Shown here piece by piece: positions 54,031-64,000 of a stretch of DNA of 64,000 bases (position 1 is its first letter; every line of letters starts with the position of its first letter). The stretch spans positions 151,777 through 215,776 of the forward strand of contig JACTUA010000006.1 of assembly GCA_015660865.1 (NCBI GenBank). The letters are read 5' to 3'. The DNA is from Methanomicrobiales archaeon (GTDB lineage Archaea; Halobacteriota; Methanomicrobia; Methanomicrobiales; JACTUA01). The notes below the pieces were generated by a model, which ran no database searches, was not told where the DNA came from, and saw nothing but the letters and a program-made list of their open reading frames with translations. A program made the translations under genes and the position numbers.

Positions 54031-54310
54031 GATGATCCGTATCCCCTTCGCCTTCACGCACCGCCGGCTCTTTCTGCCATTCTCCGTCGAACCGGGCACC
54101 GAAGACACGAGCACCACCTCCCTCCCTGAAGTTCATTTTCGCGGGGAGGTCCTTTCCATTATCGACGTCTCCTGCTTAAAGATACTATGTTATAGATATC
54201 TTCTCATGGGATTCTAGGGGCGATTCCTTCAAATTATCGTTAGTTTGTCATTATGAGAAATATTTATAAACAACTCCACTTTTTATATTTAAGCCTTCTC
54301 CATAGGTGGG

Positions 54311-54595
54311 TTATCCCGTCCGGGAAGGTGCCCGGGAATTGTGGAGGATCCTGGATGGTCTGTGTGCATGGGGTGAACCCTTACTCATCTCCTCTATTGT
54401 CTGGCCCTTTATATACTCGGACTTTATGACTTTTAGAAGTTCTTCTAAATCGCATAATCTCCGAGAGATGATGGCTTTGTCCTTCCCCACAGCCTCCCCG
54501 ATCTCCTCCTGGGTCCAGCCGAGGATATCCACCTTACTATGTCGAACCCTTTTGAGATTCACCCCGTTTTCTTTATCATGCCGCCGGCCTATCAT
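54311..54595 (-). CDS. Small helix-turn-helix DNA-binding protein
   Basis: 94 aa. GWTQEEIGEAVGKDKAIISRRL is a classic HTH (ParB/regulator-like). It is the last gene of the minus-strand module of the element. Confidence 0.5.
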   Translation of the reverse strand: MIGRRHDKENGVNLKRVRHSKVDILGWTQEEIGEAVGKDKAIISRRLCDLEELLKVIKSEYIKGQTIEEMSKGSPHAHRPSRILHNSRAPSRTG

Positions 54596-55144
54596 CTCAT
54601 GCCCAGGACCTGTCCTGGACGGTGGCGCCCTCCCTAACAGGGGAGGAGAGGAACGTCAGGAAAGAACATGGAACCATTCGAGAACCTATTCCAAGAACAA
54701 GAACATGTCATTCTCATCTACGTCGGGGACGAGGAGGAGGGTCCTCTCTCCCCCGAGGATATGCTCTGGCTCGAGGCGTCGATTGATGTGAGCCGGAACC
54801 TGATCTAACCTCTATTTTTGAAGCCGGGCGAACCGGGGATGATATCACGCCCGATTCCCACATGGCGAGTGAAAGATGATTTCAGGAGCGGGTCGTCTCG
54901 CAGGGCCTCACGCAGCGGGATCTTCGCGGTCCTCACGCCCGGCGGGGCCTGGCCGTTCGGCGGCACGAATACCATCATGGAAGATCCGTTCCCCGGTTAC
55001 CGCTTCCCCTTCTTCCCGGCGGGGCGGCTGCCGATGATGGTCGCGTGTGCATTCACCAGCACGTTCCCGATCGCGTGCTCGCCGTGCTTATGCCCCGTTA
55101 GGGTCTGCTGGGGATGATGTCTGTACGTGGTCTTCACCTCCCTT

Positions 55145-55357
55145 TTACTTCGTGCTGTTCTCTTGTGCCTGCGCTTCTCGCCATGCCTGGAGGAGGTCCT
55201 TGTGAAGGACGAGGGAGCGCCTATAAAACCCCTCGAGGTGGGCCGTGGTGGTGTGCCCGGGAAACACGGCCTTCATCATGAGAACCGAGTCGAAGATTGC
55301 CTGGAGATCCCCAACGATGCCGAGCTCCTCCCGGGTAAACTGATGGGCTGGGTCCAT
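55145..55357 (-). CDS. Hypothetical 70-aa protein of the element
   Basis: The ATG at 55357 lies 2 nt after the TGA of the giant ORF. The track start at 55414 would overlap that ORF. I recognise no family. Confidence 0.45.
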   Translation of the reverse strand: MDPAHQFTREELGIVGDLQAIFDSVLMMKAVFPGHTTTAHLEGFYRRSLVLHKDLLQAWREAQAQENSTK

Positions 55358-55359
55358 GA

Positions 55360-61192: not shown

Positions 61193-61223
61193 GAGCGTGC
61201 CATCTGTGCCATTCGTGCCAGGG
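61081..61223. repeat. Inverted iteron arrays: 3 x TGGCAC (61083, 61092, 61101) and 3 x GTGCCA (61197, 61206, 61215), 9-bp period, 86-bp spacer; candidate replication origin
   Basis: The left arm is agtggcacgaatggcacaagtggcacgag. The reverse complement of the right arm is cctggcacgaatggcacagatggcacgc, matching at 25 of 27 central positions. The spacer holds the AT-rich sequence gaaatagtatataaagaaagattaggatt and the G-run motif gggatggatagggtgggtgtgggg. Confidence 0.8.
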
Positions 61224-63661
61224 GACTCGGTCCACTTGGCAGACCGCAGGGCATCAGGACAGGGATCCCAAAGAGAGACTTGGTCATTATTCTCTGCGGG
61301 CGGCCTGTATCTTCTGGCTGCCTCAACCCATCTACTGTTATTGAGAAAGACAAGGCCCCGAATTGATCTGCGTGCAGGCTTCTCATTCGGGCCCTGGTTT
61401 ATGTAGATGTGGGTCGGCTCGGTCTCAACTCCAATGCCCCCGAGGCCGTGGGTGATCTTCTGAGGGGATGTACCTAATTTCTTTGCCATCATCGCGGGGG
61501 TGACGGCCTGGACGATCCCCTCCCGTGTCCGATAACTCTCGAACCCCTCCGGCAAATCACTATTACCTAGAGCGAGGTCCACGAGAAGGTTAAAGAGTGT
61601 CCCCTCCCAGGAGGCGGCCCGCATCCGCTGGACCTCTCTCTGCCTCGCCTTTACATAAGCCATAAACCGATCCCGCCCATCAGGGACGAGCTGGAGGACG
61701 ATAGAGAGCGGCATGGCGAGTTGCTGGATCCTCGGTTCCACCCCGAGGTCATGCAGGTCCACCATCTTTTCCCCGTCCACCTCTCCCCACCGAGTCAGGG
61801 CGAACCTGGCGATCAGTCCACGAAGGACCTCCATCTCCCGGTCGTATTCCTTGGTAAGGACGATCGGGAGATCCCGCCGGTTGCTTTCGATAGGGGAGAT
61901 GGAGAGGCAGCGCCCCTCGGTGGCATTATCGGTGAATTGGTGCCGCATCCCGAAGAGCTTGGGACAGAAGGGATCGAAGATGTCTTGGCGGCTGGGGTCG
62001 GTCTTATCGGTCTTAATGTAGTACTTCCCCCGCTCGAACCCGAGGTTCAGGTACTTAATCAGATCGTTGGTGGTGTCGCCATCCTTTAGATCAGACTCGT
62101 CGATAACGAGCGTCCCTCTCCATCCTTCTTTAAATCGCATGATACCCGAGACCGTGCTCGCGCCCGAGGCCGTGATGGGGAAGAAGCAGAGGTTCGAGAG
62201 GACCGTGATGATCCGGCTCTTCCCTTTTCCTGTATCCCCCAGGGCCCGGTAATAAGGGACGGTGTTTGCCTTCGGATAGAACCAGGTGAAGAGAAGGTAG
62301 TATATTCCCATTTCCCGGTCCAAGTCGGTGAGGTCCACCCACTTCTTTATATGTTCATCCAGGCGTCGGACGAGCTCGTCGGGGTCGATGTCATGGGCCG
62401 CCTCAATGCGCTCCCGCAGGGGGATCCCCACCACGGGCACGTCCTCTCCATCGGGCCCAATCGGGAGGGTCCGAGGCGTTATGATCCCCCCATCCTCTTC
62501 GAGATGGCTGACGAACTCAATCCCATCCCCGGTGCGGGATGCGAAGAAGTACAGGCCCTCTTCATTCCTAGCCGTGATATACAGGCGTCCATTCAGTTCC
62601 AGCCACGGCTTAATCTTCTTTTGGGCCTTCTCATCCTTCTCCGTGCTGGCAGCCGGGTCCTCCTTTGGTGGCGTTGCCCCCACCGGCTTCTTCCCCTCTG
62701 GGTACCTCACCACACTCTCGGCGATCCGCTGCACCTCATCTCCCCCGAGTGGAGGGGAGCACTTCTCTCGGTTCTCCTCCACAAGGGCCGCGAGGATGGC
62801 CTTCCCACTCATGCCCTTGGCACGGAGGGCGCAGCCGGCCCGGAAGAGGATCGAGTTCCGCTCGCCATCCTTGATCTTCTCCGGTACCTTCAGCGGCTCC
62901 CGGACCTCCAGGGACTTCGACTCAATGATGAACCTGACCAGCGCATCGCTCGGGTCTTGGACGAACTCATCGCTAGGGATACGCTCGTACCGATTCCCCG
63001 AGGCGTGACGGGATGGGGGGACGAGGATGTACCCGCCTTCGCCCTTGATGTCAATCCCCGGGAGGACCCCCACCCGGGAGGGGATGGTGGTCCCCTTCGG
63101 GACCCGGTAGAGGAGATGAAGGCCACCTCCCCCGGTCCGGTGGGTCCAGGTCTTCGGCAGGGTGCCGACCGCCTTTTCGAGCGCCTCCAGGCTGCCGCCA
63201 TGCCGCGGGTCGATATCGACCACGAAGAGCCCGCGGCCGGTGACGATGGCGAGGTTAGAGCCCGGCCATCGCTGCCACCACCCCCGGATGATCTCCCGGT
63301 CGGTGGTTGCATCCTTGAGTCCGTTGGGGGTCCTCGGGTGCTTGCCTGGCGAGGAGCACGTGGTCGCCCCGCAGGTACAGAGTCCACCCTCTCCCGGGTT
63401 GTGGATGGGGATCACCCGGAAGGCCTTCCTCGCCCATTCGAGAGCCTCGGCGAGGCAAGGGTCTCCAGCTGGTGGAGGGCTCTCCTCCTTCTTCCCGAGC
63501 CGGTCCTCGGCGAGCTTCACCAGGGCGTCGGCCTGCATGAGGATATTGACTGGTTCCGCGTTCACAATCTGCTTGATGGCCTCTTGGGTGGTGGTTGGCT
63601 GCCTAGCGAGCCCCTCGGCGATGAGCCGCTCCCGTGACTGCTCTATCTCCTCGGCGGTCAT
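61151..63661 (-). CDS. Replicase: bifunctional primase-polymerase (Prim-Pol) + PriCT-1-like + C-terminal P-loop NTPase
   Basis: The Prim-Pol pattern is FRVIPIH...GKHPRTPNGLKDAT...LFVVDIDPRHGG...GGGGLHLLYRVP...GIDIKGEGGYILVPPSRH. The PriCT-like segment is GERNSILFRAGCALRAKGMS...EVQRIAESVVRY. Walker A is GDTGKGKSR and a Walker B-like TLVIDESD follows. The ATG at 63661 overlaps the upstream stop as ATGA; the track start at 63700 is less likely. Confidence 0.85.
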   Translation of the reverse strand: MTAEEIEQSRERLIAEGLARQPTTTQEAIKQIVNAEPVNILMQADALVKLAEDRLGKKEESPPPAGDPCLAEALEWARKAFRVIPIHNPGEGGLCTCGATTCSSPGKHPRTPNGLKDATTDREIIRGWWQRWPGSNLAIVTGRGLFVVDIDPRHGGSLEALEKAVGTLPKTWTHRTGGGGLHLLYRVPKGTTIPSRVGVLPGIDIKGEGGYILVPPSRHASGNRYERIPSDEFVQDPSDALVRFIIESKSLEVREPLKVPEKIKDGERNSILFRAGCALRAKGMSGKAILAALVEENREKCSPPLGGDEVQRIAESVVRYPEGKKPVGATPPKEDPAASTEKDEKAQKKIKPWLELNGRLYITARNEEGLYFFASRTGDGIEFVSHLEEDGGIITPRTLPIGPDGEDVPVVGIPLRERIEAAHDIDPDELVRRLDEHIKKWVDLTDLDREMGIYYLLFTWFYPKANTVPYYRALGDTGKGKSRIITVLSNLCFFPITASGASTVSGIMRFKEGWRGTLVIDESDLKDGDTTNDLIKYLNLGFERGKYYIKTDKTDPSRQDIFDPFCPKLFGMRHQFTDNATEGRCLSISPIESNRRDLPIVLTKEYDREMEVLRGLIARFALTRWGEVDGEKMVDLHDLGVEPRIQQLAMPLSIVLQLVPDGRDRFMAYVKARQREVQRMRAASWEGTLFNLLVDLALGNSDLPEGFESYRTREGIVQAVTPAMMAKKLGTSPQKITHGLGGIGVETEPTHIYINQGPNEKPARRSIRGLVFLNNSRWVEAARRYRPPAENNDQVSLWDPCPDALRSAKWTESPGTNGTDGTLLQTAPHPPYPSQS

Positions 63662-63924
63662 TCCTCCAGCCACCTCCAGCAAAGGCCGATCATCCCGCAC
63701 AACGTCGAGTCAGTCATGCACCGGCCGCAGGGCATCGCCACGACCCCGAAGATCGGGGAGAGGTCGATCACTGGTTCGTAGTGCCCGCACCCAGGATCCG
63801 CCGTCCCGTCGCACGGTTTCGCGCACGGATCAAGGGTACAGAACTCGCTCCCTTTCACATCCTGGAGTCGCCCCTCCTTCATCCGCTGCCGCTCAGCTTT
63901 CGAGTGTCGGCATCTTCCGGTCAT
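63658..63924 (-). CDS. Cys-rich small protein upstream of the replicase (frame stays open to the window edge, so the start is uncertain)
   Basis: 88 aa from the ATG at 63924, with 11 Cys (CTLDPCAKPCDG...PGCGH...MPCGRCM...LCGMIGLCW). It is translationally coupled to the replicase. Confidence 0.45.
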   Translation of the reverse strand: MTGRCRHSKAERQRMKEGRLQDVKGSEFCTLDPCAKPCDGTADPGCGHYEPVIDLSPIFGVVAMPCGRCMTDSTLCGMIGLCWRWLEE

Positions 63925-64000
63925 GCCCTCGCCCCCTGTCGCTGTCGCTTCTCGGGCTTGCGCTTCGCCTTCGGATCCTGCCCGCTTGGGGTGTGGTGCT

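What the first reader, a model, noticed from the sequence alone, without database searches (positions are those of the whole stretch)
54120..64000. Truncated integrated mobile element with no recognisable integrase, capsid or transfer genes in view
At about 54.1 kb the content switches from recognisable methanogen housekeeping genes to a block of ORFans.

The block contains:
- an HTH protein (54311-54595);
- several sub-100-codon ORFs;
- a 1285-aa low-complexity ORF;
- a Pro-rich 4-Cys ORF;
- an RHH-like regulator;
- two ORFs in a ~1 kb stretch that is clearly AT-richer than the rest of the window (hand count of one 60-nt line near 60.9 kb is ~38% GC versus ~70% for a line in fdhA);
- a Prim-Pol/PriCT/P-loop replicase preceded by a Cys-rich ORF.

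The genes sit in two minus-strand modules with ATGA start/stop overlaps (59789-59792, 63658-63661) and a 2-nt gap (55357/55360). This packing is typical of archaeal virus and plasmid genomes.

The right end lies outside the window, so the class and borders are open. tRNA-Val lies 2.6 kb to the left. The four intervening genes (HEAT-like, two secreted, GNAT) could be cargo or host genes.

Most of the element is host-like in GC, which suggests long residence or a host-adapted element.
Basis: partly seen in the sequence, partly recalled or inferred. Interest (0 to 1): 0.78.

Follow-up and report, generated by a model that had tools for sequence, protein, structure and literature searches.

The report
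Integrated 13-kb archaeal mobile element
The block is the first 9.8 kb of a 12.9-kb self-replicating mobile element inserted between two host genes of a peat methanogen; its integrase lies just outside the window, and it is an ordinary kind of element that carries mostly unknown genes.

Summary
Public contigs that match the window exactly extend it to the right. About 1.5 kb beyond the window end they show an intact tyrosine integrase.

The element is 12,948 bp long. It is bounded by a 12-bp direct repeat, ATCTTTAAGCAG, whose window copy is at 54172-54183. It sits in the intergenic region between the prefoldin-beta and GNAT genes, not in tRNA-Val. Five related Methanomicrobiales species have prefoldin directly followed by GNAT, an empty site. 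In the three with enough sequence, the secreted repeat protein and the HEAT-like gene follow too. These flanking genes are therefore host genes, not cargo.

The replicase is a PrimPol + PriCT-1 + D5/NrS-1-like SF3 helicase. Two inverted arrays of three TGGCAC hexamers at 9-bp phasing flank its stop codon. The same layout, with different hexamers, recurs in three related replicons, so this is a likely origin.

No capsid, packaging or transfer gene was found. The 1285-aa protein belongs to an unannotated family. In other contigs that family sits beside integrases, a PAV1-like ATPase and adhesin-like proteins.

The best fit is a cryptic integrated element, plasmid-like or satellite-like. A novel provirus is not excluded. 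It is a new member of a known kind, of moderate interest.

The parts
54172..54183 (.). att core, one of two 12-bp direct repeats ATCTTTAAGCAG (read on the minus strand). This is the element border on the GNAT side. The imperfect extension runs to 54168.
   Evidence: The second copy is 12,948 bp away in the extended contig (L001 6531-6542 against 19479-19490). It is the only copy in the window. Only 2 of 2000 shuffles of the two junction regions give a 12-nt match. The outer flanks are contiguous in related species L007.
54311..54595 (-). 94-aa putative HTH DNA-binding protein; the last gene of the element.
   Evidence: ORF. Weak HTH_3, ParB-HTH and KorB hits at residues 23-50 and PHROG regulator E 0.008. 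Absent from empty sites.
54668..54808 (+). 46-aa acidic ORF, function unknown.
   Evidence: Called as a gene on the public contigs. No family hit.
54997..55137 (-). 46-aa ORF, called in only one annotation.
55145..55357 (-). 70-aa ORF that starts 2 nt after the stop of the 1285-aa gene.
   Evidence: No family hit.
55360..59217 (-). 1285-aa protein with low-complexity Ser/Gly/Pro-rich ends. It belongs to an unannotated family of large (about 500-1600 aa) proteins.
   Evidence: 45 cluster representatives among 1.8 billion proteins. No Pfam hit; one borderline PHROG hit of unknown function (E 0.00096) among 37 members. Family members in other contigs sit beside integrases, a PAV1-like ATPase, RCR Rep and adhesin-like proteins.
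56503..57540 (-). Conserved central domain of the 1285-aa protein (residues 560-905). Gly/Ala-rich helices are followed by a compact alpha/beta domain.
   Evidence: Alignment A3 with invariant motifs. AF2 model with core pLDDT about 90. No significant fold match; the weak top hits are ADP-ribosyltransferases.
59286..59792 (-). 168-aa (GTG start) or 154-aa (ATG at 59750) Pro-rich, Cys-containing ORF.
   Evidence: No family hit.
59789..60142 (-). 117-aa ORF, first gene of the second module. The RHH assignment is suggested by its sequence pattern only.
   Evidence: No hit in Pfam, NCBIfam or PDB. A TATA-like AT run lies just upstream.
60522..61192 (+). Two ORFs on the opposite strand in the AT-rich kilobase (100 aa in its shorter form at 60522-60824; 123 aa at 60821-61192).
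   Evidence: GC 0.44-0.49, and AT and GC skew flip sign here, as expected for genes on the other strand. GC3 is 0.42-0.45 against about 0.75 elsewhere. Called as genes on public contigs.
61083..61220 (.). Candidate replication origin. Inverted arrays of 3 x TGGCAC at 9-bp phasing (61083-61107 and 61196-61220) flank an 88-nt AT-richer spacer that contains the PrimPol stop codon.
   Evidence: There are 4 matches against 0.07 expected. The same layout occurs at the replicase 3' end in L101 (TGGCAC), L088 (TRCCAC) and L100 (TRGAAC).
61151..63661 (-). 836-aa replicase: AEP primase-polymerase, PriCT-1 and SF3 (D5/NrS-1-like) helicase.
   Evidence: Pfam. DxD motif at 149-151, Walker A at 475-482 and Walker B at 519-524. 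AF2 model of the C-terminal half (pLDDT 80) matches the NrS-1 C-terminal region (E 1.6e-7), PriRep1, ASFV PrimPol, MPXV E5/VACV D5 and the SaPI5 primase-helicase.
63658..63924 (-). 88-aa Cys-rich ORF whose stop overlaps the PrimPol start (ATGA). It is the last element gene in the window. The element continues for 3.1 kb beyond position 64000: five or six small ORFs, the 398-aa integrase, a 112-aa ORF and the second att copy.

Best explanation
Window 54172-64000 is three quarters of a 12,948-bp integrative, self-replicating mobile element of a Methanomicrobiales archaeon. It is of the kind called a 'cryptic integrated element', that is, an integrative plasmid-like element.

**Shown**
- The element is bounded by a 12-bp direct repeat.
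- It interrupts the prefoldin-beta/GNAT intergenic region, which is uninterrupted in five related species.
- It encodes an intact XerA-like tyrosine recombinase just inside one border.
- It encodes a PrimPol + PriCT-1 + SF3-helicase replicase.

**Inferred**
- The integrase recombines the 12-bp core of a circular form with the same core in the chromosome, and can reverse this.
- The circle replicates when the helicase-primase assembles head to head on the two inverted TGGCAC iteron arrays and melts the AT-richer spacer between them.
- The small HTH, RHH-like and zinc-ribbon proteins regulate these steps.

**Not known**
- How the element moves between cells. It has no recognisable capsid, packaging or conjugation gene.
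- I think a plasmid-like or helper-dependent (satellite) lifestyle is most likely. The 1285-aa protein is the best candidate for whatever transfer or host-interaction function it has.
For: - **Extension.** Identical contigs from five samples continue into the integrase and the host flank.
- **att repeat.** It appears at both junctions and nowhere else.
- **Empty sites.** They are found in L007, L008, L010, L011 and L012, and L007 is collinear with the joined flanks.
- **Integrase.** PF00589 E 6e-12. It is closest to P. abyssi XerA (4a8e), and in that alignment Arg, Lys, Arg and Tyr are in place.
- **Replicase.** Domains and helicase fold are confirmed.
- **Iteron arrays.** They are non-random, and the layout recurs in three related replicons, with the hexamer itself differing in two of them.
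- **No virion, packaging or defence hits** for the ORFs of 65 aa or more plus one 45-aa ORF; two 46-aa and one 50-aa ORF were not scanned.
- **No relatives in IMG/VR**.
- **The class is described.** Integrase plus primpol-PriCT-1-S3H elements, with 15 of 68 sitting in intergenic sites, are reported in PMC6563490.
- **pRN1 precedent.** pRN1 also needs sequence just downstream of its replicase gene (PMC4234260).
Against: - No excised circle, attP junction or conspecific empty site was found. All seven distinct contexts returned for the 21 contigs that carry the replicase show it integrated or as fragments. The att-pattern scans were uninformative because those collections lack this organism.
- The att core is short (12 bp), and the empty sites come from other species, not from the same one.
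- Two catalytic histidines of the integrase are replaced by Ser and Asn in the XerA alignment, so activity is not guaranteed.
- Absence of capsid genes is weak evidence, because many archaeal virion proteins are unrecognisable by sequence.
- The 1285-aa protein's relatives sit in virus-like modules.
Confidence: 0.6

Rival explanations
1. It is the provirus of a non-tailed archaeal virus of an undescribed family (spindle-shaped or pleomorphic) that builds its own particles. In this reading the 1285-aa protein and the small Cys-rich or membrane proteins are virion components.
For: - Relatives of the 1285-aa protein lie in contigs with clusters of small membrane proteins, secreted beta-propeller/DUF2341/PKD adhesin-like proteins, an ATPase homologous to ORF375 of the spindle-shaped virus PAV1, an RCR Rep and an integrase 26-27% identical to this one.
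- The best full-length integrase matches among viruses are Archaeoglobi pleolipoviruses of similar size (13-16 kb).
- The size and tight gene packing fit small archaeal viruses.
Against: - This element lacks the ATPase, the adhesin-like protein and the cluster of membrane proteins. Only one ORF has a hydrophobic segment.
- There are no PHROG or Pfam virion hits.
- Only the integrase is shared with the pleolipoviruses.
- The big-protein profile has no similarity to PAV1 ORF898 or ORF676.
- Nothing related is in IMG/VR.
Confidence: 0.22
2. It is an immobilised remnant. A formerly mobile element has become fixed in this species and no longer excises or replicates.
For: - All seven distinct contexts returned show it integrated or as fragments, and the five long contigs are 100% identical.
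- GC content equals that of the host.
- Two conserved histidines of the integrase are substituted.
- No circular form was found.
Against: - The main ORFs are uninterrupted, including 836-, 1285- and 398-aa genes.
- The att core is a perfect 12/12 match, and 15 of 16 with its extension.
- The iteron arrays are intact.
- The element is absent from the nearest species (93% LeuA identity), so the insertion postdates the split from those species.
Confidence: 0.15
3. It is not a mobile element but a lineage-specific block of host genes.
For: GC content is host-like, and most genes have no homologs that would mark them as mobile.
Against: It has an integrase, a primase-helicase replicase, flanking direct repeats and a clean empty site in five related species.
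Confidence: 0.02

Closest known systems
Archaeal cryptic integrated elements (CIE), as defined for Thaumarchaeota (PMC6563490)
   Same: - Small size (mostly under 20 kb).
- A tyrosine integrase at one end.
- A primpol, PriCT-1 and SF3-helicase replication protein.
- Otherwise ORFans, with no virus or conjugation hallmark.
- Intergenic targets are common in that class: 15 of 68.
   Different: - The host phylum differs (Methanomicrobiales).
- No gene other than the generic integrase and replicase types is shared.
- This element carries a 1285-aa protein of a family that in other contigs sits in virus-like modules.
pRN1-family plasmids of Sulfolobales (ORF904 replicon), and from my own knowledge their integrative or satellite relatives pSSVi and pSSVx
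   Same: [quoted passage not shown]
- A small DNA-binding regulator is present.
- An essential cis region lies just downstream of the replicase gene (PMC4234260).
   Different: - There is no sequence-level match to any solved structure.
- A PriCT-1 linker is present.
- The candidate origin is a pair of inverted iteron arrays, not the pRN1 stem-loop.
- The element is 13 kb and integrated.
- A satellite lifestyle is only an analogy.
Primase-helicases of phage NrS-1, PriRep1, SaPI5, ASFV, and poxvirus D5/E5
   Same: The C-terminal half of the replicase has the same fold (Foldseek E 1.6e-7 to 1e-4). A close relative carries the NrS-1 helix-bundle Pfam domain PF22763.
   Different: Sequence identity is only 10-14%. 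The hosts and elements are unrelated.
Pyrococcus abyssi virus 1 (PAV1) and PAV1-like elements
   Same: Contigs that carry relatives of the 1285-aa protein encode an ATPase homologous to PAV1 ORF375 (E 2e-19; phrog_22963 E 3e-40). Like PAV1, they have runs of small membrane proteins and large lectin- or adhesin-like proteins.
   Different: - This element has no ORF375 homolog and no adhesin-like protein.
- The big-protein profile does not match PAV1 ORF898 or ORF676.
- PAV1 has no integrase in its annotation.
Pleolipoviruses of Archaeoglobi (GacPV1 BK065156, ThalV2 BK065158)
   Same: The integrase matches at 23-25% identity over 84-97% of its length. Genome size is similar and the integrase-first layout is the same.
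   Different: No VP3-like, VP4-like or RCR Rep homolog is present. Only the integrase is shared.

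Membership tests
Integrated mobile genetic element (site-specific, tyrosine recombinase type) | Flanking direct repeats (att sites) at both junctions | tested here: met
   12-bp exact repeat, 15 of 16 with its extension, at both borders and 12,948 bp apart.
Integrated mobile genetic element (site-specific, tyrosine recombinase type) | Uninterrupted target site in related genomes | tested here: met
   Prefoldin is directly followed by GNAT in L007, L008, L010, L011 and L012. L007 is collinear with the joined flanks. The site was not tested in a conspecific genome.
Integrated mobile genetic element (site-specific, tyrosine recombinase type) | Integrase gene inside the element | tested here: met
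   398-aa PF00589 protein, beginning 396 bp inside the att site (one 112-aa ORF between).
Integrated mobile genetic element (site-specific, tyrosine recombinase type) | Excision to a circular form (attP junction) | tested here: inconclusive
   Pattern scans for attP and attB found nothing, but they also missed attL and attR, so those collections lack this organism. No circular contig is among the places returned.
Tyrosine recombinase | Catalytic Arg-Lys-His-Arg-His/Trp-Tyr set | tested here: inconclusive
   In the alignment to XerA (4a8e), Arg, Lys, Arg and Tyr (RVY) are in place. The two His positions read Ser and Asn.
SSV-type (gene-splitting) archaeal integrase | The integrase gene is split by integration, with att inside the gene | tested here: not met
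   The integrase ORF is intact, and the att core lies 396 bp upstream of it in non-coding sequence.
tRNA-targeting element | The att site overlaps a tRNA gene | tested here: not met
   tRNA-Val is 2.66 kb away. No tRNA or tRNA fragment is in or at the element.
PrimPol-SF3 helicase replicon (pRN1 ORF904-like) | AEP prim/pol domain with a DxD motif | tested here: met
   PF09250 E 3e-38; DIDP at residues 149-152.
PrimPol-SF3 helicase replicon (pRN1 ORF904-like) | C-terminal SF3 helicase with Walker A and Walker B | tested here: met
   Motifs at 475-482 and 519-524. The fold matches NrS-1, D5, E5 and SaPI5 helicases.
PrimPol-SF3 helicase replicon (pRN1 ORF904-like) | Cognate origin next to the replicase gene | tested here: inconclusive
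   Inverted iteron arrays at the gene's 3' end are conserved in layout in four replicons. Function cannot be tested here.
Archaeal virus (any known family) | Recognisable major capsid, packaging ATPase, portal or spike protein | tested here: not met
   No such hit in Pfam, PHROGs or NCBIfam for the ORFs of 65 aa or more plus one 45-aa ORF; two 46-aa and one 50-aa ORF were not scanned. No relatives in IMG/VR.
Conjugative or integrative-conjugative element | VirB4/TraG-type ATPase or relaxase | tested here: not met
   The only P-loop protein is the replicase.
Anti-phage defence island | Match to a known defence protein | tested here: not met
   PADLOC gave no hits for 10 element proteins.
ADP-ribosyltransferase fold (central domain of the 1285-aa protein) | Significant structural or sequence match and an R-S-E catalytic triad | tested here: inconclusive
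   ARTs are the top Foldseek hits in two libraries but are not significant (E 0.05-1, prob 0.57 or lower). An invariant E-Y-E sits at the start of a strand. No Pfam or PDB sequence hit, and the candidate Arg is not invariant.

The most novel reading that the evidence does not exclude
The element and the contigs that share its 1285-aa protein family (L090, L091, L094, L095 and about 45 cluster representatives) would represent an undescribed lineage of non-tailed viruses, or virus satellites, of methanogens and other anaerobic archaea. Its hallmark would be a 500-1600-aa protein with a new alpha/beta domain, possibly an ADP-ribosyltransferase-like effector delivered with the DNA. On this reading the element is a reduced member that swapped an RCR Rep for a PrimPol-helicase replicon.
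Probability: 0.15. Interest if true: 0.7.

Novelty: new member of a known kind. Interest (0 to 1): 0.4.

Why it matters
- **A dated reference element.** Mobile elements of methanogens are poorly catalogued. This one has exact borders, an intergenic target and a complete gene list. It can be placed in time, because the nearest species, at 93% LeuA identity, lacks it.
- **A candidate origin and vector part.** The inverted 9-bp-phased hexamer arrays next to the replicase gene recur in three related replicons, with a different hexamer in two of them. This gives a testable origin model for this clade of PrimPol-SF3 replicases. It could also supply a replicon for Methanomicrobiales, which lack genetic tools.
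- **A marker for hidden elements.** The 1285-aa protein family has no annotation, yet it is linked to integrases, a PAV1-like ATPase and adhesin-like proteins. It may therefore flag archaeal elements that current virus-detection pipelines miss.

Tried and rejected
- **tRNA-Val as the attachment site: rejected.** No repeat of any tRNA part is present. The empty sites put the border 2.66 kb from the tRNA.
- **Flanking genes (HEAT-like, 222-aa secreted, GNAT) as cargo: rejected.** They are syntenic in relatives that lack the element; the 138-aa secreted gene is absent there but lies outside the att sites.
- **att-junction pattern scans: uninformative.** One degenerate pattern covering attL, attR, attB and attP found nothing in IMG/VR or the JGI metagenome collection. 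It also failed to find the known junctions.
- **Word-indexed homolog searches with the 1285-aa protein and its domain profile: near-empty.** They returned one hit each. The exhaustive HMMER search was needed.
- **Searches for close relatives: nothing found.**
  - IMG/VR has no relative of the big protein, the replicase or their profiles.
  - The big-protein domain has no match in the phage collection.
  - The big-protein profile does not match PAV1 ORF898 or ORF676, or pleolipovirus gp04 and gp05.
- **Other negative searches:**
  - PADLOC found no defence genes.
  - Rfam found no RNA families inside the element.
  - Sequence searches of solved structures with the 117-aa and 94-aa ORFs gave only spurious hits.

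Full report
**1. The observation**

- The large minus-strand ORF at 61151-63661 has Prim-Pol (PF09250, E 3e-38) and PriCT_1 (E 1e-11) domains.
- It has a DxD motif at residues 149-151, a Walker A motif (GDTGKGKS, 475-482) and a Walker B motif (VIDESD, 519-524).
- GC falls to 0.44-0.49 between about 60000 and 61250, against 0.60-0.69 on either side. AT and GC skew change sign there, as expected for genes on the other strand.
- tRNA-Val is at 51436-51511.
- One detail is wrong. The four bases at 59789-59792 read GTGA, not ATGA, and most gene callers use an ATG at 59750 for that gene.
- The HTH label rests on weak hits (E about 0.01-0.03). The RHH label has no database support.

**2. Extending the window**

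The 836-aa replicase with the ATG start occurs with exactly this sequence on 21 public contigs. Five long ones come from ENA, JGI and an NCBI Methanomicrobiales MAG (GCA_049519435.1). They are 100% identical to one another, and L001 matches the window's last 12.85 kb exactly. They can therefore serve as the missing right-hand side. The coordinate map is L001 x = 73662 − window position.

Beyond position 64000 the contigs carry, in order:
- five or six more small ORFs (zinc ribbons, Cys-rich proteins and one with a hydrophobic N-terminus);
- a 398-aa tyrosine recombinase;
- a 112-aa AT-rich ORF;
- host prefoldin-beta, a LeuA-like gene and tRNA-Asp.

**3. Borders**

- *The repeat.* The sequence ATCTTTAAGCAG occurs at L001 6531-6542 and 19479-19490, 12,948 bp apart. 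Three of the next four bases also match. Both copies lie in the AT-rich junction regions.
- *Chance.* Only 2 of 2000 shuffles of the two junction regions give a 12-nt match. The window holds a single copy, at 54172-54183.
- *Empty sites.* A scan of species-representative genomes with the host LeuA protein returned 80 loci. In the five closest (87-93% LeuA identity), prefoldin is followed directly by GNAT. In three of them the 222-aa secreted protein and the HEAT-like gene follow as well. There is no trace of the integrase, replicase, 1285-aa protein or 94-aa HTH protein.
- *Collinearity.* The L007 intergenic region aligns collinearly with the sequence made by joining the two outer flanks of the repeat.

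It follows that the element lies between divergently transcribed prefoldin and GNAT genes. It is about 100 bp from the prefoldin start and about 55 bp from the GNAT start. tRNA-Val is not involved. GNAT, the 222-aa secreted protein and the HEAT-like gene are host genes. The 138-aa secreted gene is missing from the relatives but lies outside the att sites.

**4. Integrase**

- The integrase matches PF00589 (E 6e-12) and the archaeal XerA model, and has a C-terminal zinc ribbon.
- Its closest solved relative is P. abyssi XerA. In that alignment the two arginines, the lysine and the tyrosine (RVY) are in place, and the two histidines read Ser and Asn.
- Among deposited viruses, its best full-length matches are two Archaeoglobi pleolipoviruses of 13-16 kb and a Methanomicrobiales tailed virus. 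Nothing else is shared with those genomes.

**5. Replicase and a candidate origin**

- *Sequence matches.* Only residues about 70-335 match phage and plasmid primases.
- *Helicase fold.* An AF2 model of the C-terminal 500 residues was built on 14 homologs (pLDDT 80). It matches the helicase region of phage NrS-1 (E 1.6e-7), PriRep1, ASFV PrimPol, monkeypox E5, vaccinia D5 and the SaPI5 primase-helicase. It is therefore an SF3/D5-like helicase.
- *Iteron arrays.* Around the stop codon there are two arrays of three TGGCAC hexamers at 9-bp phasing, in inverted orientation (61196-61220 and 61083-61107). An 88-nt AT-richer spacer separates them. There are four matches to the paired-hexamer pattern, where 0.07 are expected.
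- *Conservation of the layout.* Inverted arrays 70-90 nt apart, at or just after the 3' end of the replicase gene, occur in three related replicons:
  - L101, with TGGCAC (helicase 53% identical);
  - L088, with TRCCAC (40% identical over the full length);
  - L100, with TRGAAC (40% identical).

  The flanks have diverged and the hexamer differs in two of the three related replicons.
- *Interpretation.* I read this as the origin, on which two helicase rings load head to head. By analogy from my own knowledge, the SF3 initiators of SV40 and papillomaviruses load on inverted repeats in this way. pRN1 likewise needs the 166 bp downstream of its replicase gene (PMC4234260). The function itself is inferred, not shown.

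**6. The rest of the element**

- Among the ORFs scanned (65 aa or more, plus one of 45 aa), none apart from the integrase and replicase has a significant hit in Pfam, PHROGs, NCBIfam or PADLOC. Only one ORF has a hydrophobic segment.
- There is no capsid, portal, terminase, packaging ATPase, spike, relaxase or VirB4-like gene.
- Rfam finds no RNA family inside the element.
- GC is 0.587 against 0.601 for the rest of the window. GC3 of the main genes (0.74-0.83) is in the host range.

**7. The 1285-aa protein**

- *Finding the family.* Word-indexed searches almost failed. An exhaustive HMMER scan found 45 cluster representatives of 500-1600 aa. They share a central domain at residues about 560-905.
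- *No annotation.* None of 37 members has a Pfam hit, and only one has a borderline PHROG hit of unknown function.
- *Genomic context.* Six metagenomic loci encode members. In L094 and L095 the gene lies with:
  - an integrase 26-27% identical to this one;
  - a rolling-circle Rep;
  - an ATPase homologous to PAV1 ORF375 (E 2e-19; phrog_22963 E 3e-40);
  - runs of small membrane proteins;
  - a neighbouring 900-1100-aa secreted beta-propeller, DUF2341 or PKD protein.

  That context looks like the particle or envelope module of a non-tailed archaeal virus or a related plasmid. The present element has only the big protein from that set.

**8. What it is**

The features that define an integrated mobile element are met: att repeats, an empty site and an internal integrase. 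So are those of a PrimPol-SF3 replicon. Tested features of known virus families, conjugative elements and defence islands are not met.

The closest described class is the 'cryptic integrated element' of Thaumarchaeota. These are small, carry an integrase and a primpol-PriCT-1-S3H replicase, and often sit in intergenic sites (PMC6563490).

My estimates are:
- about 0.6 that it lives as an integrative plasmid or helper-dependent satellite;
- about 0.2 that it is a provirus of an unrecognised virus family;
- about 0.15 that it is a fixed remnant.

No circular form or conspecific empty site was seen, so current activity is not shown.

**9. Verdict**

The open points are resolved as follows:
- the integrase lies 1.5 kb beyond the window;
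- the target is intergenic;
- the flanking genes belong to the host.

The element is a new member of a known kind. Two by-products deserve modest attention: the conserved inverted-iteron architecture of this replicase clade, and an unannotated large-protein family that marks archaeal elements absent from IMG/VR.

Noticed in passing
window 52119-52535 (138-aa secreted protein, minus strand): This gene lies between the 222-aa secreted protein and the HEAT-like gene. No homolog was detected in L007, L008, L011 or L012, where these two neighbours are about 90-330 bp apart instead of 713 bp. It is a small lineage-specific indel outside the element.
   Followed up: partly
window 52733-53401 (222-aa secreted protein); repeats at window 52886-53343: The gene contains three tandem copies of a roughly 116-nt unit (63-79% identical, spacing 159-183 nt). 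They encode a repeated 'GVDVS..VK..LQNGD..AVKAWLENYFQTH' module. Function is unknown. The gene is conserved in relatives at 27-79% identity.
   Followed up: no
L001 3976-4080 (outside the window, about 5.6 kb beyond its right end): Rfam finds a third tRNA of 105 nt next to tRNA-Asp that ARAGORN missed. It probably contains an intron. The adjacent 2 kb (L001 about 2000-4000) is AT-rich (GC 0.43-0.49) and was annotated differently in different records.
   Followed up: no
L007 11984-12485: In the closest related species the GNAT gene next to the empty site matches in two frames (two overlapping hits). This suggests a frameshift or an assembly error there.
   Followed up: no
L089 (Methanomicrobiales MAG GCA_030017635.1, contig JASEIH010000022.1): A 1004-aa PrimPol, whose N-terminal domain is 45% identical to the one here, lies in a block with a 1177-aa portal-domain protein. 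This is a probable head-tailed provirus of another Methanomicrobiales archaeon.
   Followed up: no
L088 (Logan SRR23086388, 10,242-bp contig): This is a possibly near-complete related element: an integrase of a different family, a PrimPol-helicase 40% identical over its full length, small ORFs and a HicAB toxin-antitoxin pair, but no big protein. It has its own inverted TRCCAC arrays at the replicase 3' end.
   Followed up: partly
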